From an uncultured Muribaculaceae bacterium (lineage in GTDB: Bacteria; Bacillota_I; Bacilli_A; RF39; UBA660): a stretch of 32,000 nt of DNA. The translations under genes were made by a program, and so were the position numbers. Within the stretch, counting starts at the first letter, position 1. Every line of letters starts with the position of its first letter. The DNA lies in assembly GCA_964384115.1 (NCBI GenBank), contig CAYLJU010000004.1, positions 14,160-46,159 on the forward strand. Reading direction: 5' to 3'. Below are positions 13,010 through 29,808 of the stretch, piece by piece. Under the pieces are notes generated by a model. The model saw only the letters and a list, made by a program, of their open reading frames with translations, did not search any database and had not been told where the DNA came from.

Positions 13010-13059
13010 ATATAGTATTTTTTATTGATTTTTGTTATAATTAATGTGTGATATGTAAT

Positions 13060-13758
13060 ATGAAATATATAGAAGTTCGTAATTTAAAATATAAAAATAT
13101 TTTTAAAGGTGTTTCTTTTTGTTTAACTGAAAAATGGAATTCTTTTTATGGAAATGAAAAAAGGGATGAACTTATATCTATTTTGCTTGGAAATTGTGAT
13201 TATGAAGGATATATTAATATAGATGGCAATTTTTTAAATAAAAATACTATTTATAATTTAAAAAATAAACTTTATTTAGTAGATAGAAAAAGTGTTTCTT
13301 ATTTTGTTGGTAATAATTTATATGATGAATTATTAATGACTGGTAATAATAAAGAATTAATTGATGATTATATTATAAATTTTCGATTAAGTAATTACAA
13401 ATTTTCTAAAATTGATACTATTCCTTTTGATAAAAAAATTATTGTTTCTATTTTATATGGTATTTTAAAAAAGTACAAATTTATTTATTTAAATAATGTT
13501 TTATGTTTTTTAGAAAAAGAAGATATTATTGCTATATATAATTCATTTATAAAAAATAATATTATAGTATTAAATTTTACGACTAATCCAGATGAATTAA
13601 TTTTTTCTTCTAAAGTTATTATGTTAAAAGATTTTGATGAGTTAGATGTTAAATCTATCAATGATATTAAAATAATTGATTTATGTGATAGGCTTATTAA
13701 TTATGGCGTACTTGATCAAAAATATACTAGTATAGAAGGTGTTGTATCTAATTTATGA
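13060..13758 (+). CDS. degenerate ECF-transporter ATPase-like protein (EcfA1 position; ABC motifs lost)
   Basis: IEVRNLKY..IFKGVSFCL aligns with the ABC N-terminus. The Walker A position reads FYGNEKRDELISILLGN. The signature / Walker B region reads IPFDKKIIVSILYGILKKYKFIYLNNVLCFLEKED. First of three genes immediately upstream of truA. An extended -10 TGtTATAAT lies at 13033-13041. Confidence 0.55.
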   Translation: MKYIEVRNLKYKNIFKGVSFCLTEKWNSFYGNEKRDELISILLGNCDYEGYINIDGNFLNKNTIYNLKNKLYLVDRKSVSYFVGNNLYDELLMTGNNKELIDDYIINFRLSNYKFSKIDTIPFDKKIIVSILYGILKKYKFIYLNNVLCFLEKEDIIAIYNSFIKNNIIVLNFTTNPDELIFSSKVIMLKDFDELDVKSINDIKIIDLCDRLINYGVLDQKYTSIEGVVSNL

Positions 13759-14324
13759 TAATAGATGGTTATGAATTTAAGGGTATAATAAATGGATTTA
13801 CTTTAGATGAAACATTAATTAATTTTAAAAATGAAATAATTGATATAGATAAACAAATACTATGTGTTTCTAAAAAAAAATTAAAGGGTAATGCTAGTAA
13901 ATATATTGATATAGATAGTTTACTATTAAAAAAAAATTTAAGTCATTATGAAAAATTCCTTGTTTTATTGGAAAGTTATTTACTTAATAATCCTGATTGT
14001 ATTGTTTTTAAAAATCTTTTTTGTGATTTTTCAAATGATGAATTAAAAGATTTAGTTTTATTATTTAGAGATTTAAAAAAGAAAAAAGTATGCAAATTTA
14101 TAATTTGTTCTAAAAATGCAGAAATTATTTTAAGTTTATGTGATTATGTTATTGATGAAAGTGGTAGTGGTAAAACTATTGCTGTTTATAAAAATAAAAA
14201 AAATAATTTGCCATTTTGTATTAAGTTTGCAAAAGAACTTGAAGAATGTAAGGGTAAGAAAATAGGAATTTATCGTAATAATATACCTGATTTAGCAAAG
14301 GATGTGTATAGGTATGTGGAATAA
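13755..14324 (+). CDS. truncated, degenerate ECF-transporter ATPase-like protein (EcfA2 position)
   Basis: LSHYEKFLVLLESYLLNNPDCIVFKNLFCDFSNDE aligns with LSGGQ...ILDEPT..LD but with the catalytic residues replaced. The whole P-loop half is missing (189 aa). The C-terminal LPFCIKFAKELEECKGKKIG resembles the EcfA C-terminal helices. ATGA overlap with the upstream gene. Confidence 0.5.
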   Translation: MIIDGYEFKGIINGFTLDETLINFKNEIIDIDKQILCVSKKKLKGNASKYIDIDSLLLKKNLSHYEKFLVLLESYLLNNPDCIVFKNLFCDFSNDELKDLVLLFRDLKKKKVCKFIICSKNAEIILSLCDYVIDESGSGKTIAVYKNKKNNLPFCIKFAKELEECKGKKIGIYRNNIPDLAKDVYRYVE

Positions 14325-14916
14325 TATTGTTAGGTCTGTACCATCTTATTTTAAAATAATATCTATGTTATTATTTTGTTTGTCAACTGTCATTTGTTTT
14401 GATTATTTAGGAATAATATTACTTTTTTGTATTCTTTTATTTGTAACTATAAGAAGTGATATTAATGTTTCTGTATATATATTACCGATATATGAAGTTT
14501 TAATTCTTGTATTTTTGTGTTTTATTTGTCATTTACATTTTATTTATATTTTTAAAATTATATTAATTTTGTGTTATATAAAATATTTATTAGCTGTTAA
14601 TAACTATTTAACATTAGATAATTCTTTAACAAAAATATTTAGATATGGTTTTTTTAAAATAATAAAAAAATATGATATTTTAAGGTCTTATTATAAATTA
14701 AATGTAAAAACAAATTATTCTTTATATAGTAAAAAAAATAGATTTAAATCTTTATATTTAGCATATATAGAAGTTAAAAATGATAATATGCAAAAAATAG
14801 TAAACTCTAGAAATTATTTAATTGTTGAGTCTAAAAAAAATGTATACGATTATTTATTTGTTATAATGCATGCATTATGTTTGATTTTTTGCTTATTTTT
14901 GGAGGTATATAGATGA
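14302..14916 (+). CDS. small polytopic membrane protein at the EcfT position (EcfT-like, highly diverged)
   Basis: 204 aa with several hydrophobic helices. Overlaps the previous gene and overlaps truA by ATGA. The call is positional only; I could not see the EcfT Ala-Arg-Gly motifs. ATG 14314 is an alternative start. Confidence 0.4.
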   Translation: MCIGMWNNIVRSVPSYFKIISMLLFCLSTVICFDYLGIILLFCILLFVTIRSDINVSVYILPIYEVLILVFLCFICHLHFIYIFKIILILCYIKYLLAVNNYLTLDNSLTKIFRYGFFKIIKKYDILRSYYKLNVKTNYSLYSKKNRFKSLYLAYIEVKNDNMQKIVNSRNYLIVESKKNVYDYLFVIMHALCLIFCLFLEVYR

Positions 14917-16744: not shown

Positions 16745-16954
16745 ATGATTTTAGAAGGAAAAATTATTGATATTAATGAATGTTTTGGTACTGTTGAAAT
16801 TGGTGATATTAAATATAAATTTTCTTTGAATCTTGTTTATGGGGATAAAATTGAAATTGGTAATTTAGTAAAGGTTAGATTAGAAAATGGTATCGTTAAA
16901 ATAGTTAATAAATATGAAATTGTTGAATTGGAGGAATTTTTAGATGTTGATTAA
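16745..16954 (+). CDS. small hypothetical protein (69 aa, beta-rich look)
   Basis: Intact ORF overlapping the downstream methyltransferase gene by 11 nt. No motif recognised. Confidence 0.4.
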   Translation: MILEGKIIDINECFGTVEIGDIKYKFSLNLVYGDKIEIGNLVKVRLENGIVKIVNKYEIVELEEFLDVD

Positions 16955-19206: not shown

Positions 19207-19279
19207 CTTATTAATAATGGTGAAGATAACTTGTATTTAAATAAAAAAAATGATATATTATTATAGGAGTATGATTGTT

Positions 19280-22105
19280 ATGGTAGAAGAAATTAAGAGA
19301 GCTATTGATAATAATGATATTGGCAAGCTTTATGCTTGTGGATTTTTTATGGATTCTTCCATTAAAGATTATATTTTAAAAAATAAGAGAAGAATTATAA
19401 GTGATATCCTTAATTTAAAACTTTGGTTAGATGATGAACTTGTACTTTCTTTTTATTCCGATAATGATTTTATAAAGGCTTCAATTATGGTTTCTAATAT
19501 AGATGTAGCGAGATTTTTTAATAATGAAGAAATTAATAATTTTTTGCTTAATAATATGAATCATATAGTTAGATTTATGAATGAAAAAACTTATGTTCTT
19601 TCTAATAAGACACCTAAAGTGTTATTAAATAATGAAAATTTTATTAAATTATGTTTAGATAATGGTTTTATTAATATACTTGATTATACAGATTGTGATG
19701 ATTATTATTTAGAAAATAAAGAAAAAATCGATATAGAATGTTCAAATAAGATTGCTAAGGGGATAATTAGAGTAGATGAGTTTTCTTCTAAAAAAATTCT
19801 TTCAAATTCTAAGTTTTTAATTAGTTCTATAATTGGTAATCATTATGATATTTTACTTTTTAGTTCTAATTCTGAACTTGATAGATATATTGAAGATAAT
19901 TATAAAAAAATATCGAAAAAATTAGATGGTTTTATTAGAAATAATAATTATTTTATTAACAAAAATGTTGATATAAAATTACCTTTCTTTTTAGGTGTTT
20001 ATAAAAATTTGTTAAATAGAGATTTTATGAATAGAGTTATTGATAATGATTTTCTTAAAATAATTGAAAACAGCGATTTTTGTTATTTGGTTTCTTTTTT
20101 AACAGATGATGTTATATTAGATGTTTTTGGTAAAAAAATATTTCAATTGTATTTATTTTTTGGTATAGAATTTTTTAATATTGGTTATGATAAAATTTGT
20201 TTAATAAATTCATTTTCAATAATTGAGTATGAAAGATTTATTAAAATATTTTGTTTTGATGGTTTTATTAAGATGGAAAATGTTCGTAATATGTATTTTT
20301 CTATTATTAAAGGCGAGTTTGAAAAAAAATCTTTATTTAATAAAGATTCTGTTTTAATGATTGAAAATATCATTAAATCTCAAGGATTAATTGATGATTC
20401 TATTAAAATAAAAATTGAGCATTTAAAAGAAATTTTAGGTTCTTCATATCGTGATTTTTTAATTGATTTAATAAAAGATAATTTTCGTTTTGATCTTAAA
20501 AAGTCTTTTAATGAGTTGATAGATGATGTCTTTGATGCCTATAGACGTTCTATTATTTCTTTAGATATGGATAAACAAAACAAACTTGAAAATGTTATTG
20601 AAAGTTTGTTTGTGTGTGCATATGATAGAGAATTTGATTTATTTGCCGCTAGTAAAATGGATTTTAGTGATGGTTATCCTTTTCTTGTTGAACCTAGCGA
20701 TATTTATATTAAAAGGGTTTATAAGGAGAAAAAACTTCAAAAACTTAAAAATAAATTATTAGAAAATAACAAATTATTTAATGAATTATGTCAAAATGTT
20801 TATTCAGATTATACTAATGTTTCTTTTGATTTTTATGTTAAAGATGTAAGAAAGTATTTGGAAAAAAATGAATTTACTTTGCAAGATTTGAACAAAAATG
20901 TTGATAATTATCTTAGTAGATATGTTAATTTAGAAGATATAGATTCATTTTATATTGAATATTTTAATCTTCCTTTAACTGATGAATATTTGAAAACTTA
21001 TTGTAATATAAAGACTGTTTTAAGTATTTTAAATGATGTTGATATTTGTAAAATTCGTTTTATGTTACAAGATGAAAATTATGGTAAATTTAAAGAGTTT
21101 TTATTTGATAAACAATTATTATATATGCTTGATAGTTTTAGTTTATTACCATCATTTTATAACAAAAAAAATTTGGAAAATTTGATTAATAATTTATATA
21201 TATTAAAAGAGGAAAATTTATATGATATTTTTAAAGAAGCAATTAGATATAGCGAAATTTCTTCCTTATTTAATCCAATATTTAGTGAATTTTCTAGTTA
21301 TTTAATTAATGATTCAAAATATTTGAGTGAAGTATTAAGTAGATCTTATAAAACTCTTTCTAAAAGAAGTTTACCTATTCCTGATATTTCAAAAAAATAT
21401 TTAGTGAATAATCACGAAATTACGGTTTCGGTTGGTGGATATGATTATAATGATGTTTTTCTTCCGTTACTTGTTAATTCTGATGTAATGGTTTATTCAA
21501 AATATGATGATCTTCATAAATATATTTTTAGTAATGATAATGGTTTTATTTTAAAATTTTATGATAATAAATTAATAGGTCTTATTTTTGGTATTAGATA
21601 TGGTAATAGTATATTTTTGTCTAATGTGTCTTCTATTGTTCATTCTAGTTATATTGATTTGCCATTAAAAAAGTTTATTGAATATATTGTTGATTATTGT
21701 AATCAAAATGGCGATAATTTGAGACATATATATTTATCTGTTAATGGTGATGTTAATAAATTATTTAGTTTAGTTAATAGTCTTGTTTCTGTTTCTACTG
21801 ATTATGATAAAAAAGGTTTTGTTTTATATGATGATGGAACAAAAGTTAGTGGATATATAAAAAAACGTTATCCTATTAATCCTATTATTTATACAAATGA
21901 GGAAGCTGTTAGACGGGCAAATGCAATAAAAATAATTGATTTATTTGGGCATCATGAAGAAAATTTAATTAATAGTATTAATTATATTGATGCTAGTTTG
22001 GCAGGTAGGTCTTGGTATAAGGATGAAGATATTTTTGTTATAGGATCTATTTCTGATGATATAATCAAAGAAGTTAATATAGGCAAAGAAAGGATTAGGA
22101 AATAA
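19280..22105 (+). CDS. giant uncharacterised protein, paralog A (about 941 aa; up to 951 aa if ATG 19250 is used)
   Basis: A 2.8-kb uninterrupted ORF in DNA where stop codons are very frequent. AGGAG at 19265-19269 favours ATG 19280; 19271 and 19250 are also in frame. Colinear similarity to the next ORF. No TM segment, signal peptide or known catalytic motif seen. Confidence 0.7.
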   Translation: MVEEIKRAIDNNDIGKLYACGFFMDSSIKDYILKNKRRIISDILNLKLWLDDELVLSFYSDNDFIKASIMVSNIDVARFFNNEEINNFLLNNMNHIVRFMNEKTYVLSNKTPKVLLNNENFIKLCLDNGFINILDYTDCDDYYLENKEKIDIECSNKIAKGIIRVDEFSSKKILSNSKFLISSIIGNHYDILLFSSNSELDRYIEDNYKKISKKLDGFIRNNNYFINKNVDIKLPFFLGVYKNLLNRDFMNRVIDNDFLKIIENSDFCYLVSFLTDDVILDVFGKKIFQLYLFFGIEFFNIGYDKICLINSFSIIEYERFIKIFCFDGFIKMENVRNMYFSIIKGEFEKKSLFNKDSVLMIENIIKSQGLIDDSIKIKIEHLKEILGSSYRDFLIDLIKDNFRFDLKKSFNELIDDVFDAYRRSIISLDMDKQNKLENVIESLFVCAYDREFDLFAASKMDFSDGYPFLVEPSDIYIKRVYKEKKLQKLKNKLLENNKLFNELCQNVYSDYTNVSFDFYVKDVRKYLEKNEFTLQDLNKNVDNYLSRYVNLEDIDSFYIEYFNLPLTDEYLKTYCNIKTVLSILNDVDICKIRFMLQDENYGKFKEFLFDKQLLYMLDSFSLLPSFYNKKNLENLINNLYILKEENLYDIFKEAIRYSEISSLFNPIFSEFSSYLINDSKYLSEVLSRSYKTLSKRSLPIPDISKKYLVNNHEITVSVGGYDYNDVFLPLLVNSDVMVYSKYDDLHKYIFSNDNGFILKFYDNKLIGLIFGIRYGNSIFLSNVSSIVHSSYIDLPLKKFIEYIVDYCNQNGDNLRHIYLSVNGDVNKLFSLVNSLVSVSTDYDKKGFVLYDDGTKVSGYIKKRYPINPIIYTNEEAVRRANAIKIIDLFGHHEENLINSINYIDASLAGRSWYKDEDIFVIGSISDDIIKEVNIGKERIRK

Positions 22106-24753
22106 TGGAATTCGTAAGAGAGAGATTACCACACTATAATGATGAAAATGTTTTTAATGATTTTATAAATAATGGTTATTATGAAATTATTAATTATTCT
22201 GAATTAGGTAATAAATTTGTTTTAAATAATTACTATTTAATTATTGATTTGATTAAGAAAAACGAATATTTTATTTGTTCTGTTAGCCCTAGTAATATAA
22301 AAAATGATTATCGATTTTATTTAGCTTCTTTTGAAAGTGGTAATGTTGATTCAATATTCTTTTATAAAGGAGATATTCATATATTTGATGAATTTTTTAG
22401 AGAAAAAAGAAATTTGATAAATTCATTTGATTGGTTAAATGTTAAAATTAAATTAAAGAAAATTTTAGATTTTAATTCTGTTATTACTGATATTTATTTT
22501 GAGGATCTTAATAGAAAAATACTTGATGGTTCTATTGGTTTAGATGATTTAATTAAAAATCCATTTTATAATAAAATTGTTGATTTTTTATCGTTAGATT
22601 CTATAAAAAAATTATATGGAGTTAATAGCCTTGAATTTGTTAGTAGATATGGTCGTAAGATTCTTTTAAATGAAGATTATGAATATATTGAAAACTTAGA
22701 AATTAATGATTTGAATAAATTTTTTGAAATTTTTAAATTTAAAAATGGTTCTATTATTAATTTATATAATTTATATAGTTCACTTGTTGATTATAATTTT
22801 TTATATAAATGTAGTGGTGATGTTTTAAATAATCAAACTTATAATCATTTATGTATTAATTTATTTAGTGGTAAAAATATAGATTATATATTCTTATTGT
22901 TTGAGGAAATTAATAAATATTTAAATGATTTTGAAAAGAATAAAATATGTTCTAAGTATAATGTTGATTTTCAAAGTTTACCTTTGTTGTTTGATAAATT
23001 TATTAATTTGTATAAATCTGAAAATTATAATGATTTTAATATCTATAGTTCAATAATTAAAGATTTATGTTTAATGTCTTATAATAAAAAAAGAGATTCT
23101 TTTATTAAAGAAAAACATGATTTTAGTAATGGTTTTCCTTTTGATATACAGTTAACTTTGAAGATGAAAAGACTTATTAATAAACGAAAATTAATGAAAG
23201 ATATGGCTATTTCAATAGCATATGATAAAGAAAAATTAGATTCTTTAAAGGAATATTTGGTTAATAAAAAAATTATTGATAAAGATTTTGATTCCAATAT
23301 TTTGTTTGCTTTGTTAACTGATGGTGTTAAAGGAGTTAAATTGATTGAAATTGAGAATGTTAATTATTTAATGGGAAAAATACTTGGTTTTGTTAGTTCT
23401 TATATTGATGATGATTGTTTGAATTCTGATATAAAATTTGATGAATATAAGAATTTACCTTTAAATGATGATTGTTTTTATGTACCATTTGATAAAAATG
23501 ATTTAATTGATATTGTTAATTCTATTGATTTAAAATTTTTCTTTGAAACTGTTATTAAAAATAAAAATGTTTTTGAATTGTTTAATAATTATATTGTTAA
23601 ACATGATTTAATTTATTTTGTTTCATCATTAAAATTATGTGATGTTTGTTATTGTGGTGATGTTTGTTATAGTATAGTTGGTATGAAAGAATTAATTAAT
23701 AATTTTGCTAAAGTTATTAACATAAATGTTGATAAAAAATTATATATATCAATATTTGAGATGTTAAAGAAAGCTCATTTTGTTAATAATCCACTTAATA
23801 TTTATGAAAATGTTTTTGGAGATTCTAATAAGTGGATTATAAGTGATCCTTTACCACATAAAAGTTCATTAGAACCATCAAAAAAAATAAAAAGATGTAT
23901 GGATGTTTACAAAAAAATGCTTGTACGAGATTATATAGGTGTTCCTGTTTTTACTATGAATTATGGTGATTTAATAGTGACAAATGATAATTTTTATGAT
24001 GATGGAATGCTTGTTACTGGAGAAAAACTTGGGTCTTGTATGCGAGCAGGTGGAACTTTTGATAATTTGTTTGAATATACTCTTACATCTCCTAACGGAT
24101 TTAATATAATTTTTAAAAAAGATGGTGAATTAATTTCGAGAGTAGCTGGCGTTATTATTAAAAATTCTATTTTTTTGAATGAATTAAGAGAACCTTTATG
24201 TAATGATTATTCTAATGATTATTTATTTAATGCTTTAAAAAAATATATTTTAAATTTAGTTAAAAAAGCTAATTTAAATGGTCAAATTATTGATCAAGTA
24301 TTTGTTGTTAATGGTGTTCAAGGAACGAGAAATATAAATTCCAATATTGTTAGAGATGATTTGTTTTTAAAATTAAAAAATGGCTATTACGGCTTTAATA
24401 TGAATTATGAAAAAACAGGATTGTGTTTATATATAAATGAAAATAAAGCTTTAAAAAATAATTATAATTGTTCTTTTTGCTCTATAAATGGCAACACTAA
24501 ATACTATAAAATATCTAAATTTAAAACTTTAAGAGGTTCTGATGCTGTTAAAAGAATAAATATGTTGCGTTTTTTAAAAGGTAGTTTAGATTATATTGAT
24601 AGTTTTGATGATGCTATTTGTTCTAGTTGTTTTTATGTTTATAAAAAAGATGGTATAATTTACTCTGATATTTTGGATGGAGCTATATCTGATGAAATAA
24701 AATGTGAATATGAAAATGCCATAAATTCTTTAAATTTCAGAAAAAATATTTGA
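22105..24753 (+). CDS. giant uncharacterised protein, paralog B (882 aa; Cys-containing C-terminal module)
   Basis: Its start overlaps the stop of paralog A (TAATG at 22103-22107). Shared blocks include DFSNGFPF / DFSDGYPF, NLPLNDD / NLPLTDE, NGFNIIFKKDGELISRVAGVIIKNSIFLNEL / NGFILKFYDNKLIGLIFGIRYGNSIFLSNV and VFVVNG / IYLSVNG. Confidence 0.7.
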   Translation: MEFVRERLPHYNDENVFNDFINNGYYEIINYSELGNKFVLNNYYLIIDLIKKNEYFICSVSPSNIKNDYRFYLASFESGNVDSIFFYKGDIHIFDEFFREKRNLINSFDWLNVKIKLKKILDFNSVITDIYFEDLNRKILDGSIGLDDLIKNPFYNKIVDFLSLDSIKKLYGVNSLEFVSRYGRKILLNEDYEYIENLEINDLNKFFEIFKFKNGSIINLYNLYSSLVDYNFLYKCSGDVLNNQTYNHLCINLFSGKNIDYIFLLFEEINKYLNDFEKNKICSKYNVDFQSLPLLFDKFINLYKSENYNDFNIYSSIIKDLCLMSYNKKRDSFIKEKHDFSNGFPFDIQLTLKMKRLINKRKLMKDMAISIAYDKEKLDSLKEYLVNKKIIDKDFDSNILFALLTDGVKGVKLIEIENVNYLMGKILGFVSSYIDDDCLNSDIKFDEYKNLPLNDDCFYVPFDKNDLIDIVNSIDLKFFFETVIKNKNVFELFNNYIVKHDLIYFVSSLKLCDVCYCGDVCYSIVGMKELINNFAKVININVDKKLYISIFEMLKKAHFVNNPLNIYENVFGDSNKWIISDPLPHKSSLEPSKKIKRCMDVYKKMLVRDYIGVPVFTMNYGDLIVTNDNFYDDGMLVTGEKLGSCMRAGGTFDNLFEYTLTSPNGFNIIFKKDGELISRVAGVIIKNSIFLNELREPLCNDYSNDYLFNALKKYILNLVKKANLNGQIIDQVFVVNGVQGTRNINSNIVRDDLFLKLKNGYYGFNMNYEKTGLCLYINENKALKNNYNCSFCSINGNTKYYKISKFKTLRGSDAVKRINMLRFLKGSLDYIDSFDDAICSSCFYVYKKDGIIYSDILDGAISDEIKCEYENAINSLNFRKNI
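23639..23670 (+). repeat. 14-nt direct repeat at 18-nt period inside paralog B (encodes CDVCYC-GDVCYS)
   Basis: GTGATGTTTGTTAT occurs at 23639-23652 and again at 23657-23670. Confidence 0.8.
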
Positions 24754-24777
24754 TTATTAAAAAAAATGTTGTATAAT
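24750..24777 (+). promoter_or_regulatory. putative promoter of the alaS T-box leader
   Basis: TTGATT (24750-24755, overlapping the stop codon of paralog B), 16-nt spacer, TATAAT (24772-24777). Confidence 0.5.
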
Positions 24778-24784
24778 ATATTCA

Positions 24785-24976
24785 AAGCGAAGAACAAGAA
24801 TTTTTAAAGATAAGTTTATAGAGAGTTTACTAATGGTGGAAGGTAAATAATAAGTTTTTAAAATGTGCTACTTGGGAGTTGAGTAATAAAATTACTTCGG
24901 TTTAGGCCGTTATAAAATTAAGTTAAATAAAGGATGGTACCGTCTATTATAGACTCCTTGTACTATTCTTTTTTTT
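24785..24976 (+). ncRNA. T-box leader (tRNA-Ala, GCU specifier) with terminator/antiterminator
   Basis: AGAGAG box at 24820-24825. GCT followed by A at 24867-24870, in the context ...AAAATGTGCTACTTGGGAG. T-box sequence AAAGGATGGTACCGTC at 24929-24944, whose UGGU can pair with the ACCA end of a tRNA with discriminator A73. Terminator helix GGATGGTAC (24932-24940) / GTACTATTC (24960-24968), followed by T8. Possible stem I base AAAGCGAAG / CTTCGGTTT. Confidence 0.8.
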
Positions 24977-24986
24977 GGAGGTATTT

Positions 24987-26732
24987 ATGAATTTAAAAGA
25001 TATGTATATTAATTTTTTTGTAAGTAAGGGTCATACATGGATTCCTAGCAGTCCTGTTGTTCCTGAAAATGATCCATCTGTTTTATTTAATACTGCTGGT
25101 ATGCAACCACTTATACCATATTTAATGGGGGAACCTCATCCTTGTGGAACTAGGCTTTGCGATTATCAGAAATGTATTAGAACAAATGATTTAGACAATA
25201 TTGGAGATACTTATCATCATACTTTTTTTGAGATGTTAGGTAATTGGAGTTTAGGAGATTATTTTAAGAAAGAGGCTATTAGTTGGAGTTTTGAATTTTT
25301 GACAGATGTTTTAAAAATTCCTGTTCAAAAATTAGCTGTTACTGTATTTGCTGGAGATGAATTTGTTCCTTTTGATGAAGAATCTTATAATTTGTGGAGA
25401 AGTTTAGGTATCCCTGATGATAGAATCGCGCGAACTAGTTCAGATAATTTTTGGATTGCTGGGGATACTGGTCCATGTGGTCCGGATACGGAAATGTTTT
25501 ATTTTAGATCTTCTGATCCTGTTCCTGATAAGTTTGATCCAGAAGATGATAGATGGGTTGAAATATGGAATGATGTCTTTATGCAATATTATAAAGATTC
25601 TAATGGTAATATAAGTGAATTACCTAAAAAGAATGTTGATACTGGTATGGGTCTTGAGAGAGTTGTTACAGTATTAGAAAATTTAACAGATAATTATAAA
25701 TCTAGTGTTTGGAAAGATATCATTAAAGTCATAGAAGAAATTTCTGGTAAAAGTTATGAAGGAAATGAGAAGTCTATGAGAATTATTGCTGATCATATTA
25801 GAACATCTACCTTTATTGCTGCTGATAAATCAGGAATAAAGCCTAGTAATACTGATCAAGGTTATATTTTAAGAAGATTGATAAGAAGGGCAATTAGACA
25901 TGCTAAAAAATTAGAAATTGATATTAACAGTAATTTTGAAGAAAAAATTGCTTCTAAGATAATTGAACAATATGGAAAATATTATAGCGAATTGATTGAT
26001 AATAAAAATGTTGTTTTTGATGTTTTAAAAAATGAAAAAATTAAATTTTGTAGAACACTTGAAAAAGGATTAAGAGAATTTGAAAAAGTTGCTAGTAATG
26101 GAAATAATATTGATGGCATAACTGCTTTTCATTTGTTTGATACTTATGGTTTTCCTCTTGAATTAACTGTTGAGCTTGCTAGTGAGAAGAATTTAACTGT
26201 TGATGAAGAAGGTTTTATGGATAAATTTAGAGAGCACCAAGAGTTATCTAGAACTGCTAGTTCTGGTAAATTTAAAGGTGGACTTGCTAGTAGTGGAGAG
26301 ATGGAAACTAAATATCATACGGCAACACATTTACTTAATGCTGCTTTGAAGGTTGTAGTAAGTAAAGATTGTCACCAAAAAGGTTCAAATATTACTAGTG
26401 AAAGAATGCGCTTTGATTTTAGTTGTGATCATAAATTATCTGATGATGAAAAAATTAAAGTTGAGGAATTAGTTAATAAATGGATAAGTGATTCTATTGA
26501 TGTCAATGTAACAGAAATGAGTAAACAAGATGCTATTGATAGTGGTGCAGAATGTATGTTTATTGAAAAATATCCTGATATTGTTACAGTCTATAGTATT
26601 GGAAATGTTTCAAAAGAAGTTTGTGGTGGTCCACATGTAAAGAATACTTCTGAACTTGGCCATTTTAAAATTTTAAAAGAAGAGGCTAGTAGTGCTGGTG
26701 TGAGAAGAATAAAAGCTATTTTAGAAAAATAA
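24987..26732 (+). CDS. alaS: alanine--tRNA ligase, compact form (581 aa)
   Basis: N-terminal FFVSKGHTWIPSSPVVPENDPSVLFNTAGMQP, GPCGPDTEMFY, WNDVFMQY, DTGMGLERV. Editing-core motifs HTATH and CGGPHV. Ends ...SSAGVRRIKAILEK. ATG 24987 follows GGAGG. Confidence 0.92.
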   Translation: MNLKDMYINFFVSKGHTWIPSSPVVPENDPSVLFNTAGMQPLIPYLMGEPHPCGTRLCDYQKCIRTNDLDNIGDTYHHTFFEMLGNWSLGDYFKKEAISWSFEFLTDVLKIPVQKLAVTVFAGDEFVPFDEESYNLWRSLGIPDDRIARTSSDNFWIAGDTGPCGPDTEMFYFRSSDPVPDKFDPEDDRWVEIWNDVFMQYYKDSNGNISELPKKNVDTGMGLERVVTVLENLTDNYKSSVWKDIIKVIEEISGKSYEGNEKSMRIIADHIRTSTFIAADKSGIKPSNTDQGYILRRLIRRAIRHAKKLEIDINSNFEEKIASKIIEQYGKYYSELIDNKNVVFDVLKNEKIKFCRTLEKGLREFEKVASNGNNIDGITAFHLFDTYGFPLELTVELASEKNLTVDEEGFMDKFREHQELSRTASSGKFKGGLASSGEMETKYHTATHLLNAALKVVVSKDCHQKGSNITSERMRFDFSCDHKLSDDEKIKVEELVNKWISDSIDVNVTEMSKQDAIDSGAECMFIEKYPDIVTVYSIGNVSKEVCGGPHVKNTSELGHFKILKEEASSAGVRRIKAILEK

Positions 26733-27406: not shown

Positions 27407-27435
27407 TTGACTTTTGTTTTTGTTTGGGGTAGAAT
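27407..27435 (+). promoter_or_regulatory. sigma-A type promoter of the TasA-like gene pair
   Basis: TTGACT (27407-27412), 17-nt spacer, TAGAAT (27430-27435). GAGGAGG follows at about 27470, then ATG 27485. Confidence 0.55.
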
Positions 27436-27484
27436 TATATTGTATGATAGATATGGTTATGATAACAATGAGGAGGGTTTTGCT

Positions 27485-28003
27485 ATGAAGAATAGAAATA
27501 AAGTTATAATTTTTTTAGTGATTGCTCTATTAATGATAGGTGGCGTTACTTATGCTTTGTATATTCAATCTTCTGTAGCAAAAGGAACTTCTATAGTTGC
27601 TAGGTGGCGCTTTAAGGCAAACAATAGCAAGGAATCTTTTACCATAGATTTAACAAAAAATGCCTCTAATTTATTAAATGGTAAAATTGGTCCTGGTTCT
27701 TATGGATCATTTGATATCATTTTGGATGGAACTGGCAGTCAAGTTGATATTGATTATGTTGTTTCATTTGATAAATTAGAAAATATTCCAATGAATATGA
27801 AATTTTATGCTGATGCTGGAAAAAGTAAAACTGTTAGTTTATCTTCATATGAGATTAATGGTGTTATTTCTTATGGTGGCAGTATGCAAAAAAAATATAC
27901 TATTTATTGGGAATGGCCAATTGATGGTAATGGCGATACAAGTTATGCTGGAAAAACTTTGAGTTTTGATGTTCTTGTTGATGCTGTTCAAAAAACTAAT
28001 TAA
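27485..28003 (+). CDS. TasA/camelysin-family (peptidase M73-like) secreted protein with SipW-type signal peptide, copy 1
   Basis: MKNRNKVIIFLVIALLMIGGVTYALY signal. KIGPGSYGSFDIILDGTGS resembles the TasA NLKPGDK..F.F.N.GS strand. C-terminal YAGKTLSFDVLVDAVQ resembles TasA YQGNSIKLQFSFEATQ. The TTG at 27407 in the ORF track is the -35 box. Confidence 0.55.
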   Translation: MKNRNKVIIFLVIALLMIGGVTYALYIQSSVAKGTSIVARWRFKANNSKESFTIDLTKNASNLLNGKIGPGSYGSFDIILDGTGSQVDIDYVVSFDKLENIPMNMKFYADAGKSKTVSLSSYEINGVISYGGSMQKKYTIYWEWPIDGNGDTSYAGKTLSFDVLVDAVQKTN

Positions 28004-28061
28004 GGTGAAAAATTGATTTATTCAATTTTCATATAAAAAGAATTATAGGAAGGAAGAAAAA

Positions 28062-28682
28062 ATGAAAAAAGATCAATTAAAAATATTAATAGTTGCGTGT
28101 TTAATAGTTGCAGTTTGCGGATTTGCATATGCTACTTATGCATTCTTTCAAACAACATTTACAGGAACTGCAACAGCTACTTTAGCTGCTGAGTGGTCAT
28201 TTGATTTCTTAGGAAAAGATTCTGGTGCATATCAATCTTTAAAAGGAGCAACTTATACAATTGATTTAGCTAAGTCTTGTACTAATTGCGCAGATGTTAC
28301 TGTTGAAGGTAATACTACTAAAAAACTTCAACCAGGTTCTCAAGGTAGTTTCATGGTAAAAGTTGATGCATCATCAAGTACTGTTAAAACAAATGCTAAT
28401 GTTGTTATGTATAATTTAACTGTTGGTGGTAATACTACAATACCTGCTGGTTTGAGATTCTATGTTTTAGATGGTTCAAGTGAAAGAACCTTAACAACTG
28501 ATAGTTTAACAGGTTCTGGTGCAGCTATTTATTCTAATACTTGGGAAGCTGATGCAGCAGATAAAACAGGAGAACAAACAGTTTATTGGGCTTGGGATTA
28601 TGCAGCTGCTAATGATAATGCATTCCAAGGAAAAACTATAAATTTTGCATTAAAAGCTGAAGCTGAACAAGCTACTGAATAA
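28062..28682 (+). CDS. TasA/camelysin-family secreted protein with SipW-type signal peptide, copy 2 (expression-biased codons)
   Basis: Signal MKKDQLKILIVACLIVAVCGFAYATYAFF, then LQPGSQGSFMVKVDASSS, TVYWAWD, FQGKTINFALKAEAEQ. Colinear with copy 1. Visibly richer in G+C and uses TTC for Phe, as the ribosomal protein genes here do. Confidence 0.55.
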   Translation: MKKDQLKILIVACLIVAVCGFAYATYAFFQTTFTGTATATLAAEWSFDFLGKDSGAYQSLKGATYTIDLAKSCTNCADVTVEGNTTKKLQPGSQGSFMVKVDASSSTVKTNANVVMYNLTVGGNTTIPAGLRFYVLDGSSERTLTTDSLTGSGAAIYSNTWEADAADKTGEQTVYWAWDYAAANDNAFQGKTINFALKAEAEQATE

Positions 28683-28881: not shown

Positions 28882-29808
28882 ATGCGAAATAAGACATTTA
28901 AAACTCTCGATGAGCAGATAGAAATAATGAAATCAAAAGGTTTAGTTATTTCGGATGTTGATAAAGCAAAAGGTATATTATTTAGGGAAAATTATTTCTT
29001 TTTAAACGGTTATAGACAACTTCTTATGTATCCTGGTGAGAAAAAATTCATTAAAGGTTCTACTTTTGATGAATTATATGGTATCTTTATTTTTGATAGA
29101 AGAATTCGTAATATATTTTTTAAATATATTTTGATTATAGAAAATAACATTAAATCAGTAATTAGTTATTGTTTATCAAAAAAATATGGATATAGAGAAA
29201 AGGATTATTTGCGCGATGATAATTTCGTTGATGATCCTAATAGAAACAAACAGGTTCATGATGTTATAAGTAAAATGAAAAGACAGATTAGGATTAATGG
29301 GGCTCAGCATAAAGCTACTGCTCATTATGTTTCTAATTATGGATATATTCCTTTGTGGGTTCTTGTCAAGGTTTTGTCTTTTGGAATTGTTGCTGAATTG
29401 TATGGCATACTAAAAGATGAAGATAAAGAAACAATTTCTAACATTTATAATATCGATAGTAATACTTTACTTATATATCTTTCTTTGCTTGCTAATTTTA
29501 GAAATATATGTGCACATGAGGACATATTTTATGAGCATCGAACTGGTAGAAAGATTCCTGATAATAAATATCATAAATTGCTTGATATAGAAATGAATGA
29601 AGATGGGTATATTTTTGGAAAAAATGACTTATATGCATTAGTTTTAATTATGAAAGTTATGCTTAGTGATGGAGAATTTAGAGATTTAATTCACGAAATT
29701 AGTTACGAACTTGATATTTTGAATGGAAAAGTAAATAGTGTGTCAATCGTAGAAATATTAAAAAAGATAGGTTTTCCAATTAATTGGACAGATATTTTAG
29801 ATTTATAG
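28882..29808 (+). CDS. Abi_2-family (AbiD/AbiF-like) abortive-infection protein
   Basis: N-terminal TLDEQIEIMKSKGLVISD...A...L...NYF.L.GY, central YIPLWVLVKVLSFG, and LANFRNICAHEDIFY (R-N-x-x-A-H motif). Length 308 aa. Confidence 0.75.
   Translation: MRNKTFKTLDEQIEIMKSKGLVISDVDKAKGILFRENYFFLNGYRQLLMYPGEKKFIKGSTFDELYGIFIFDRRIRNIFFKYILIIENNIKSVISYCLSKKYGYREKDYLRDDNFVDDPNRNKQVHDVISKMKRQIRINGAQHKATAHYVSNYGYIPLWVLVKVLSFGIVAELYGILKDEDKETISNIYNIDSNTLLIYLSLLANFRNICAHEDIFYEHRTGRKIPDNKYHKLLDIEMNEDGYIFGKNDLYALVLIMKVMLSDGEFRDLIHEISYELDILNGKVNSVSIVEILKKIGFPINWTDILDL

What the first reader, a model, noticed from the sequence alone, without database searches (positions are those of the whole stretch)
19250..24753. 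Two translationally coupled, mutually paralogous giant ORFs of unassignable family between zupT and the alaS T-box
Seen in the sequence: uninterrupted ORFs of 2.8 kb and 2.65 kb sit in DNA so AT-rich that random frames rarely stay open beyond about 60 codons. The stop of the first overlaps the start of the second (TAATG, 22103-22107), so they are almost certainly co-translated. The two products are colinear paralogs. Shared blocks are LFVCAYDREFDLFAASKMDFSDGYPF vs LCLMSYNKKRDSFIKEKHDFSNGFPF, YFNLPLTDEY vs YKNLPLNDDC, NGFILKFYDNKLIGLIFGIRYGNSIFLSNV vs NGFNIIFKKDGELISRVAGVIIKNSIFLNEL, NQNGDNLRHIYLSVNG vs NLNGQIIDQVFVVNG, and DYDKKGFVLYDDG vs NYEKTGLCLYINE. For the first block, nt 20660-20683 and 23119-23142 are 22/24 identical. 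Neither protein has a signal peptide, TM helix, P-loop or any catalytic signature I can name. The N-terminal halves look like degenerate helical repeats of about 35-40 aa (LLNNENFIKLCLDNGFINILDY, ILSNSKFLISSIIGNHYDILLF). The best-conserved part is a C-terminal module of about 250 aa. The pair looks even more AT-rich than its housekeeping neighbours. Inference: this is a dedicated two-protein cytoplasmic system of unknown role. Possible roles are defence, toxin/immunity, or an enzyme paired with a regulatory pseudo-enzyme. It is my best candidate for something undescribed in this window.
Basis: partly seen in the sequence, partly recalled or inferred. Interest (0 to 1): 0.75.

Follow-up and report, generated by a model that had tools for sequence, protein, structure and literature searches.

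The report
Paired giant proteins, one degenerate copy
Two overlapping genes in an uncultured gut bacterium are a duplicated pair from a large, unnamed family of about 1,100-residue proteins with an acetyltransferase-like end domain; the downstream copy keeps the family's conserved residues, the upstream copy has lost them all, and the function is unknown.

Summary
Gene A (true start 19280, 941 aa) and gene B (22105-24753, 882 aa) overlap in TAATG. They are colinear paralogs (BLASTP E 2e-14; profile-profile E 1.4e-39).

No Pfam, NCBIfam, PADLOC, PHROGs or PDB sequence match exists. They are not orphans, though. An exhaustive profile search found 378 clusters of relatives, median about 1,100 aa, all from metagenomes (gut and rumen where the contig is named).

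The family's conserved part is a C-terminal domain with invariant residues (GERTGACMR…ISRV…FLNELR). AlphaFold models of A and of B each match only GNAT acyltransferase folds, weakly (E 0.02-0.2).

- B keeps the family-wide invariant residues.
- A has replaced all seven polar invariants, yet is under purifying selection (dN/dS 0.22).

In 58 of 84 relatives a small beta-barrel ORF follows the big gene directly. This pair lacks it; a similar 69-aa ORF lies 2.3 kb upstream.

The pair sits at the same locus in every relative recovered, has normal GC3, and is absent from phage and plasmid collections. It is therefore not a defence island.

Best reading: an enzyme plus pseudoenzyme pair of a new GNAT-like transferase family. 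The substrate is unknown.

The parts
19280..22105 (+). Gene A, 941 aa. It is the degenerate paralog: an all-helical region of about 700 residues followed by a GNAT-like alpha/beta domain. The ORF opens at 19250, but translation most likely starts at 19280.
   Evidence: start and length; AF2 model, pLDDT 87.6; Foldseek hits are nearly all GNAT; dN/dS 0.22
19265..19269 (+). AGGAG ribosome-binding site, 10 nt upstream of the ATG at 19280.
   Evidence: read directly from the sequence
19236..19264 (+). Weak sigma-70-like promoter match (TTTAAA-17-TATTAT, 9/12) in the 99-nt gap after the divergent Zip gene.
   Evidence: this is a consensus match only, and such matches are no more frequent here than in shuffled sequence
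21380..21634 (+). Segment of A (residues ~701-785) that aligns with the family signature. Every polar invariant is replaced: E->L, C->D, R->M, SR->GL, NxLR->SxVS. GIRYGN is retained.
   Evidence: alignments; the replacements are conserved in all 17 A orthologs
22103..22107 (+). TAATG: the stop of A overlaps the start of B by one base, with an AGGAA just upstream. This arrangement suggests translational coupling.
   Evidence: the junction is a 1- or 4-nt overlap in L001, L004, L005 and L006
22105..24753 (+). Gene B, 882 aa. It is the signature-bearing paralog: helical residues 1-~600, then a GNAT-like alpha/beta domain (~610-780), then a small beta/alpha tail.
   Evidence: AF2 model, pLDDT 86.7, pTM 0.65; top 50 PDB matches are all GNAT; dN/dS 0.21
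23944..24189 (+). Family signature in B (residues 614-695): P614, G639, E640, C645, R647, G650, L655, F666, S678, R679, N692, L694, R695 (…LVTGEKLGSCMRAGG…NGFNIIF…ISRVAGV…SIFLNELR).
   Evidence: These positions are invariant in alignments of 36-40 divergent family members and invariant or nearly so among 16 C-terminal domains. The near-invariant His667 of the family is Asn in the B clade.
16745..16954 (+). 69-aa ORF similar to the small partner 'Y' of the wider family. It overlaps the start of the downstream SAM methyltransferase gene (16944) by 11 nt. Its link to A/B is uncertain.
   Evidence: hhalign against the Y profile gives probability 94%, E 1.2e-7
24750..24961 (+). Context only. A promoter-like site (TTGATT-16-TATAAT, 24750-24777) overlaps B's stop codon. 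It is followed by the alaS T-box leader (24781-24961). No terminator-like site was found after B.

Best explanation
**Shown.** A and B are a lineage-specific tandem duplication of one member of a large, unnamed protein family found only in metagenome sequences (gut and rumen where the contig is named; the three named genome records are uncultured Firmicutes/Bacilli).
- A typical member is a single cytoplasmic protein of about 1,100 aa. It has a long helical N-terminal part and a conserved C-terminal domain.
- The C-terminal domain carries an invariant Glu, Cys, three Arg, a Ser and an Asn (consensus GERTGACMRIGG … ISRVSGFRNGN … FLNELR).
- B keeps all of these residues. A has replaced all of the polar ones.
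- Both genes are under purifying selection, and the overlapping junction is kept in every relative recovered.

**Inferred.**
- The C-terminal domain has a GNAT-like (acyl-CoA N-acyltransferase-type) fold.
- By position in the predicted secondary structure, the invariant residues lie in the alpha1-alpha2 region, on beta3, and straight after beta4. In GNAT enzymes these elements line the substrate and cofactor cleft.
- B is therefore most likely a group-transfer enzyme (acyl or aminoacyl transfer), possibly working through the invariant cysteine, on a large substrate held by the helical arm.
- A is a catalytically dead paralog that probably works with B as a non-catalytic subunit. This idea rests only on the conserved gene overlap and on A's conservation.

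The substrate and the chemistry are unknown.
For: **Paralogy.** BLASTP E 2e-14; hhalign probability 100%, E 1.4e-39 over 722 columns.

**Family.**
- The B-clade profile finds 378 clusters at E<1e-3 and 240 at E<1e-30 in 1.84 billion representatives. Median length of the top 150 is 1,123 aa.
- Invariant columns were defined on 36-40 divergent members.
- A strict signature regex matches 129 of the top 150.

**A is degenerate.** Alignments. The replacements are fixed in all 17 A orthologs.

**Both genes are functional.** dN/dS is 0.22 for A and 0.21 for B against the 83-84% identical ortholog.

**Coupling and synteny.** The overlap and the locus are conserved in L001, L002, L004, L005 and L006.

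**Fold.** Two separately predicted AF2 models (pLDDT 86.7 and 87.6) each return almost only GNAT enzymes from the PDB. These include GCN5, PCAF, NatD, Naa60, SpeG, RimI, PseH and L/F-transferase, at Foldseek probability 0.9-1.0. BFVD also returns GNAT and N-acyltransferases.

**Contrast with other tandem pairs.** Tandem pairs elsewhere (L033, L058, L079) keep GERTxxCMR in both copies. P0041 fuses two copies, each with its own signature. The degeneration of A is therefore specific to this clade.
Against: - The fold matches are weak: E 0.02-0.2, TM-score 0.38-0.52 on the target, about 130-160 columns.
- The models come from shallow alignments (25 and 29 sequences), with pTM 0.56-0.65.
- No sequence profile links the domain to any Acetyltransf Pfam family.
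- The GNAT motif A (Q/R-x-x-G-x-G/A) is absent after beta4.
- The placing of invariant residues in the cleft was read from secondary-structure order, not measured on coordinates.
- The B clade has lost the family's near-invariant His667, so B itself may differ in activity from canonical members.
- Nothing here tests an A-B interaction.
- The usual small partner ORF is missing downstream of B.
Confidence: 0.45

Rival explanations
1. The proteins are non-catalytic scaffolds. The family would be a structural or adaptor solenoid, and the conserved C-terminal motif would be a ligand-, metal- or partner-binding site rather than an active site. A and B would be two subunits of one architectural complex.
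For: - About 600-700 of the 880-940 residues are helical.
- A is strongly conserved without the motif. Its own best-conserved part is the N-terminal 100 aa.
- There is no cofactor-binding motif A.
- The B clade tolerates loss of His667.
Against: An invariant Glu/Cys/Arg/Ser-Arg/Asn-x-Leu-Arg set, held across 36-40 members that are about 20% identical to B, is more typical of catalysis than of binding. The fold matches are enzymes.
Confidence: 0.2
2. The two genes are subfunctionalised paralogs that act independently. After duplication A acquired a different role that does not need the old site, and the gene overlap only reflects operon compaction in a small AT-rich genome.
For: - Many neighbouring genes in the window also overlap by a few bases.
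- A carries a unique, highly conserved ~115-aa N-terminal extension and its own invariant motifs.
Against: - The order A then B and the 1- or 4-nt junction are kept at about 50% protein identity.
- The two genes evolve at the same rate (dN/dS 0.22 and 0.21; dS 0.43 and 0.40).
- Motifs shared by A and B, such as DFSxG(Y/F)PF and NLPL(T/N)D, do not appear in the wider family's consensus.
Confidence: 0.15
3. The pair is a conflict system: anti-phage defence, or a toxin with its immunity protein. B would be a GNAT-type toxin or effector, and A its inactive-paralog regulator or decoy.
For: - A and B evolve faster than their neighbours: 83-84% versus 97-99% identity, and dN/dS 0.21-0.22 versus 0.03-0.15.
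- An Abi_2 gene lies 4 kb downstream.
- GNAT toxins exist (general knowledge).
Against: - No PADLOC hit for A, B or seven canonical members.
- No PHROGs, phage, plasmid or IMG/VR relatives.
- The pair occupies a fixed housekeeping locus in all relatives.
- GC3 is native.
- Neighbours of canonical members are EF-P, PNP, MurF, Ddl and FtsEX.
- The Abi_2 gene is itself syntenic in relatives and separated from the pair by four genes, starting with alaS.
Confidence: 0.1
4. The family is a remote branch of the PcfJ-like proteins of Firmicute conjugative plasmids and Herelleviridae phages. Those proteins have a long N-terminal region and a C-terminal domain with a conserved E…HC motif.
For: - Two 'PcfJ-like' phage proteins appear among the BFVD matches of the B model (ranks 13 and 31, probability 0.35 and 0.69).
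- Both families pair a long N-terminal part with a C-terminal domain carrying Glu and Cys close together.
Against: - PF14284 is never hit, even at E<=10 for the 16 C-terminal domains.
- hhalign of a 9-sequence PcfJ-domain profile against the family domain profile gives probability 0.05%.
- The Glu-Cys spacing differs, and the His preceding the Cys is absent.
- tblastn with a canonical member finds nothing in phages or plasmids.
Confidence: 0.05

Closest known systems
GNAT (GCN5-related N-acetyltransferase) fold superfamily, e.g. GCN5/PCAF, NatD/Naa60, SpeG, RimI, and the GNAT-fold L/F-tRNA-protein transferase
   Same: The C-terminal alpha/beta domains of both A and B are the only parts of the models that match solved structures. 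Nearly all top matches are GNAT-fold enzymes. The strand and helix order (beta-beta, two helices, three long antiparallel strands, long helix, strand) fits the GNAT core.
   Different: - No sequence-level match to any Acetyltransf family.
- No Q/R-x-x-G-x-G/A pyrophosphate loop.
- A distinct invariant set (E, C, R … S-R … N-x-L-R) that includes a cysteine.
- The domain is embedded at the end of a 600-1,000-residue helical protein and followed by an extra ~100-residue beta/alpha tail.
Enzyme-pseudoenzyme paralog pairs in general (general knowledge)
   Same: Adjacent paralogs in which one copy keeps the conserved residues and the other has lost them all, yet remains under selection and co-encoded.
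   Different: No interaction or activity has been shown here. The parent family normally works as a single copy with a small beta-barrel partner rather than as a paralog pair.
PcfJ-like proteins (Pfam PF14284) of pCF10 and Herelleviridae phages
   Same: They occur in Firmicutes. They have a long N-terminal region plus a C-terminal domain of unknown function with conserved Glu and Cys. There are weak Foldseek hits.
   Different: No profile similarity. The motif differs (EGxxLxHCV versus GERTGACMR). PcfJ proteins are encoded on mobile elements, whereas this family is chromosomal and absent from phage and plasmid sets.
Cold-shock-domain / RsgI N-domain type small beta-barrels (for the partner ORF 'Y')
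   Same: The Y profile's best PDB sequence matches are the RsgI1 N-domain and four cold-shock proteins, sharing the pattern GK(I/V)xx(Y/F)…G.I…(Y)xF…GDxVxF.
   Different: The E-values are only 0.017-0.56. There is no Pfam CSD hit. The aromatic RNP1/RNP2 motifs of cold-shock proteins are not evident (read from the alignment).

Membership tests
Unnamed giant-protein family of uncultured Bacilli (defined here; no Pfam or NCBIfam model) | C-terminal signature P…GE(R/K)xxxC(M/L)RxxG…L…F…SR…N(E/Q)LR | tested here: met
   B has every invariant residue. A has none of the polar ones. B is therefore a full member and A a degenerate member.
Unnamed giant-protein family of uncultured Bacilli (defined here; no Pfam or NCBIfam model) | Near full-length colinear similarity, not only the end domain | tested here: met
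   The B-clade profile aligns over positions ~10-860 of 862 with many 1,000-1,400-aa proteins at E 1e-40 to 1e-95. A aligns with B over 722 columns.
Unnamed giant-protein family of uncultured Bacilli (defined here; no Pfam or NCBIfam model) | Small (~70-99 aa) beta-barrel ORF directly downstream, often overlapping the stop | tested here: not met
   It is present in 58 of 84 family genes. It is absent after B in the window and in L001-L006 and L022-L026. A Y-like 69-aa ORF lies 2.3 kb upstream at 16745-16951.
GNAT acyltransferase superfamily | GNAT core fold | tested here: inconclusive
   Foldseek top hits for both models are almost exclusively GNAT, with probability 0.9-1.0. However, E is 0.02-0.2 and TM 0.38-0.52.
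GNAT acyltransferase superfamily | Motif A, Q/R-x-x-G-x-G/A, at the beta4-alpha3 junction (acyl-CoA pyrophosphate binding) | tested here: not met
   After beta4 the family has FLNELRxSxxxxY and no Gly-rich loop.
GNAT acyltransferase superfamily | Sequence-profile match to an Acetyltransf/GNAT Pfam family | tested here: not met
   No hit for A or B (E<=1), for 36 full-length members (E<=0.01), or for 16 C-domains (E<=10).
GNAT acyltransferase superfamily | Binding and use of an acyl-CoA or aminoacyl-tRNA donor | not testable with these tools
   This needs biochemistry.
PcfJ-like (PF14284) | Match to the PcfJ domain profile, motif EGxxLxHCVxxY…I.F.R…T.E | tested here: not met
   No Pfam hit. hhalign of the PcfJ profile A8 against the family profile A5 gives probability 0.05%.
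Known anti-phage defence systems (PADLOC-DB 2.0) | HMM match to a defence protein, and location in a variable island | tested here: not met
   No hits. The locus is fixed and syntenic among housekeeping genes. GC3 is native.
GNAT-type toxin-antitoxin modules (TacT/AtaT-like; defining features from general knowledge) | Small (~160-200 aa) GNAT toxin with an upstream small DNA-binding antitoxin | tested here: not met
   The proteins are 880-940 aa. The upstream gene is a full-length paralog, not a small antitoxin.

The most novel reading that the evidence does not exclude
The family is a previously unrecognised class of cysteine-dependent, GNAT-fold macromolecule-modifying enzymes of uncultured Bacilli. 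A helical arm holds a large substrate (a protein, or an RNA delivered by the small cold-shock-like partner). In this clade the system has been rebuilt as an obligate enzyme-pseudoenzyme heterodimer that no longer needs the adjacent small partner.
Probability: 0.2. Interest if true: 0.75.

Novelty: new variant of a known kind. Interest (0 to 1): 0.55.

Why it matters
- A protein family with hundreds of sequence clusters, each member costing 3-5 kb of coding DNA (the window itself is dominated by overlapping housekeeping genes), has no Pfam, NCBIfam or PDB counterpart and no name.
- Its invariant Glu/Cys/Arg signature on a GNAT-like scaffold suggests chemistry not covered by known acetyltransferase families.
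- The A/B pair is a natural experiment. One copy keeps the site and the other has lost it completely, yet is just as constrained. That gives a direct handle for testing what the site does and whether the dead copy acts as a regulatory subunit.
- The small conserved partner ORF adds a second testable component.
- If the function were found, it would annotate a conserved large gene in uncultured gut and rumen bacteria.

Tried and rejected
**Curated libraries.**
- Pfam, NCBIfam, PADLOC and PHROGs on A, B and P0013 gave nothing above noise.
- Pfam on 36 full-length members and on 16 C-terminal domains gave nothing consistent.
- NCBIfam and PADLOC on 7 canonical members gave nothing.

**PDB sequence searches.** Single proteins and the domain profile gave nothing.

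**PcfJ idea.** It came from motif resemblance and two weak BFVD hits. I built a PcfJ domain profile from pCF10 and eight phages. hhalign probability was 0.05%, so I rejected it.

**Mobile-element origin.** tblastn of a canonical member against phages and plasmids, and an IMG/VR scan, found no relatives.

**Apparent split genes.** In L009 and L011 the big gene appears as two adjacent ORFs on low-coverage contigs. In L011 a shifted reading frame stays open across the junction, so I read this as a frameshift of one gene rather than a real two-gene architecture.

**Conserved operon partners other than Y.** Recurrent neighbours are only housekeeping genes (EF-P, PNP, MurF, Ddl, ABC transporters). 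These probably reflect local synteny.

**Sporulation link.** Three distant loci suggested one (spoIIGA-sigE-X in L003; X-dacB-spmAB in L010 and L011/L012). The 80-locus survey did not bear it out.

**Names and literature.** Cluster look-ups gave no names or accessions. Literature searches on RFN20/CAG-884 and on PcfJ gave nothing relevant.

**RNA genes.** Rfam at gathering threshold and the tRNA scan found nothing in the window.
Full report
**1. The observation**

The window carries two long + strand ORFs, 19250-22105 and 22105-24753. By base composition a stop is expected about every 10 codons. The chance that 941 codons stay open is about 7e-42.

The closest orthologs of the first gene are 941 aa, as listed. 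An AGGAG lies at 19265-19269, 10 nt before the ATG at 19280. The real start of gene A is therefore 19280.

The stop of A and the start of B share one base (TAATG, 22103-22107).

- 20660-20683 and 23119-23142 are 22/24 identical.
- There is no Walker A motif.
- No 19-residue stretch exceeds a mean hydropathy of 1.45.

**2. Paralogy**

BLASTP gives one colinear alignment of 913 columns, 23% identity, E 2e-14, with composition-based statistics. A profile of 17 A orthologs against a profile of 11 B orthologs plus one distant relative gives hhalign probability 100%, E 1.4e-39, over 722 aligned columns.

The similarity is spread evenly, 15-22% identity in every ~100-residue bin. Internal repeats in the helical part have only weak statistical support: z = 5.0 for the first 300 aa of A, and 2.7-3.4 for B.

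**3. Origin and conservation of the pair**

*Setting.* The window is a housekeeping stretch of a very AT-rich Firmicute. It carries tilS, ftsH, gmk, parA, parB, ychF, rpsF-ssb-rpsR, truA-rplM-rpsI, a SAM methyltransferase, an RluA-type pseudouridine synthase, a Zip transporter on the opposite strand, then A, B, a T-box and a short alaS.

*Synteny.* The same order, with A and B overlapping by 1 or 4 nt, is found in metagenome contigs and MAGs whose proteins are only 50-59% identical to the window's. These include Firmicutes bacterium CAG:884 and an uncultured Bacilli MAG from Hadza gut samples.

*Selection.* Against the 83-84% identical ortholog, dN/dS is 0.22 for A and 0.21 for B. Both genes are therefore maintained, but they evolve faster than their neighbours (0.03-0.15).

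*Base composition.* The low GC of the pair (0.20-0.21) lies in codon positions 1 and 2, with 45-46% F/Y/N/I/K residues. GC3 is 0.10, as in neighbouring genes. This is what AT pressure does to weakly constrained residues, not a sign of foreign DNA.

**4. The wider family**

No curated library names A or B. The word-indexed search found only 13 and 17 close relatives.

An exhaustive HMM search with the B-clade profile found 378 clusters (50% identity representatives) at E<1e-3 and 240 at E<1e-30. Most of the 150 best representatives listed are 1,000-1,400 aa, with median 1,123. Many alignments span nearly the whole profile.

None of 36 sampled members has a Pfam domain. Seven have no NCBIfam or PADLOC match. 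Source names are 'hypothetical protein' or absent. All sequences come from metagenomes; those with informative contig names are gut or rumen.

Alignments of 36-40 divergent members show an invariant set, in B numbering: P614, G639, E640, C645, R647, G650, L655, F666, S678, R679, N692, L694, R695. The consensus is NLTxGERTGACMRIGGxGxxLFxFCLxNxNGFHIRFxDPxTGExISRVSGFRNGNTVFLNELRxS.

- B has all of these residues. Its clade has Asn instead of the near-invariant His667.
- In A the aligned segment reads …VFLPLLVNSDVMVYSKYDDLHKY…NGFILKFYDNKLIGLIFGIRYGNSIFLSNVSS. So E->L, C->D, R->M, SR->GL and NELR->SNVS. These replacements are fixed in all 17 A orthologs.

Other tandem pairs of the family (L033, L058, L079) keep GERTxxCMR in both copies. 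A 2,526-aa fused double (P0041) has two C-terminal domains, each with its own signature. The decay of A is therefore particular to this clade.

**5. Fold**

AlphaFold2 models were made separately for B (pLDDT 86.7, pTM 0.65) and A (pLDDT 87.6, pTM 0.56), from alignments of 25 and 29 sequences. Both are helical for the first ~600-700 residues. An alpha/beta domain follows, then a small beta/alpha tail.

Foldseek against the PDB returns nothing at E<0.001:
- For B, all 50 best matches are GNAT acyltransferases.
- For A, 49 of the 50 best are GNAT-fold enzymes.
- The matches include GCN5/PCAF, NatD, Naa60, SpeG, RimI, PseH, PA3270 and L/F-tRNA-protein transferase.
- E is 0.02-0.2, probability 0.9-1.0, and TM-score on the target 0.38-0.52 over 130-160 columns.

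BFVD gives GNAT and N-acyltransferases too. It also gives one uncharacterised phage protein at E 3e-4 and two weak 'PcfJ-like' hits.

I read this as a GNAT-like fold held with moderate confidence. By order of secondary-structure elements:
- E640/C645/R647 fall in the alpha1-alpha2 region.
- S678/R679 fall on the second long strand.
- N692/R695 come straight after the third long strand, where GNAT enzymes carry their CoA-binding motif A.

That motif (Q/R-x-x-G-x-G/A) is absent here.

**6. A partner I did not expect**

I clustered the ORFs around 84 family genes in 80 metagenome loci plus four earlier loci. One recurrent neighbour stood out: a 70-99-aa ORF directly downstream, usually overlapping the big gene's stop by 4-30 nt or starting about 10 nt after it. 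It is present in 58 of the 84 cases with enough downstream sequence.

Its profile has no Pfam match. Its best PDB sequence matches are the RsgI1 N-domain and four cold-shock proteins, at E 0.017-0.56. It is probably a small beta-barrel.

The other recurrent neighbours are housekeeping genes: EF-P, PNP, MurF, Ddl and ABC transporters.

The window's clade has no such ORF after B. A conserved 69-aa ORF at 16745-16951 does match the partner profile (hhalign probability 94%, E 1.2e-7). It overlaps the start of the methyltransferase gene by 11 nt. It may therefore belong to that gene rather than to A/B.

**7. What I think it is**

*Shown:*
- A clade-specific tandem duplicate of a widespread, unnamed giant-protein family.
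- The signature is kept in B and lost in A.
- Both genes are under selection.
- The overlapping junction is conserved in all relatives.
- The pair is chromosomal and vertically inherited.

*Inferred:* B is a GNAT-like group-transfer enzyme that may use its invariant cysteine, with the helical arm holding a large substrate. A is a non-catalytic paralog that works with B. I put this at 0.45 overall.

*Rivals:*
- A non-catalytic scaffold (0.2).
- Independent subfunctionalised paralogs (0.15).
- A conflict system (0.1). It is disfavoured by the absence of PADLOC, phage, plasmid or IMG/VR relatives, and by fixed synteny.
- A remote PcfJ relative (0.05). A direct profile-profile test rejected it.

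**8. Novelty and score**

The family is undescribed in every library available here. At fold level it is a strongly divergent GNAT-like domain in a new architecture, so I call it a new variant of a known kind.

The pair is not a unique system but one duplicated member of a family, and its function remains unknown. Still, an unnamed family of this size with a clear signature, a conserved partner and a natural active/dead pair is worth follow-up. I score it 0.55.

Noticed in passing
window 13048-14916 (+): Three very low-GC ORFs (236, 189 and 204 aa; GC 0.17-0.20) sit just upstream of truA-rplM-rpsI. From general knowledge, Bacillus has ecfA1-ecfA2-ecfT at that position. None hits ABC_tran or any Pfam family at E<=0.1. 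The first two read like ABC ATPases without a Walker A motif, and the third has about five TM-like segments. They may be degenerate ECF-transporter components, and they are conserved in relatives (L001, L004).
   Followed up: partly
window 16745-16954 (+): A conserved 69-aa ORF overlaps the start of the PF10672 SAM methyltransferase gene by 11 nt. It matches the profile of the small partner ORF of the giant-protein family (hhalign probability 94%). It could instead be a detached RNA-binding beta-barrel domain of the methyltransferase.
   Followed up: partly
window 24781-24961 (+): The T-box leader upstream of alaS matches the full Rfam model, but at 62.6 bits, below the gathering score of 93 (E 1.7e-13). 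A gathering-threshold scan therefore misses it. A promoter-like TTGATT-16-TATAAT overlaps B's stop codon, and no terminator follows B.
   Followed up: yes
window 24975-26732 (+): The alanyl-tRNA synthetase is only 585 aa (579-596 aa in relatives) and has just the tRNA-synt_2c and tRNA_SAD domains. From general knowledge it appears to lack the C-terminal part of typical ~870-aa bacterial AlaRS.
   Followed up: no
window 19280-24753 versus L004: Synonymous divergence of A and B (dS 0.40-0.43) is two to four times that of the flanking genes (0.10-0.19) in the same pair of genomes. This is unexplained. Possible causes are weaker codon constraint, local recombination, or a different history.
   Followed up: no
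window 27407-28682 (+): Two adjacent ORFs of about 200 aa each have an N-terminal hydrophobic segment and similar C-terminal ends (…YTIYWEWP… / …TVYWAWDY…), with no Pfam match. They look like paralogous secreted proteins. In L001 a weak Peptidase_S24 (signal-peptidase-like) gene lies a few genes further downstream.
   Followed up: no
window 28882-29808 (+): An Abi_2 (Abi-like) gene lies 4 kb downstream of B. It is at the same place in L001 and L004, so it appears fixed in this lineage rather than part of a variable island.
   Followed up: partly
P0041 (2,526 aa); L033 300-8564; L058 173-8966; L079 1887-8954: Elsewhere the family has duplicated repeatedly. There is one fused double protein, and there are three tandem gene pairs. 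In all of them both copies keep the GERTxxCMR signature. In L058 each copy has its own small downstream ORF.
   Followed up: partly
L009 7506-11156; L011 7083-11771: In low-coverage contigs (4-5x) the giant gene appears as two adjacent ORFs. In L011 a shifted reading frame stays open across the junction, which points to an assembly frameshift. Gene callers and clustered protein sets therefore hold many fragments of this family.
   Followed up: partly
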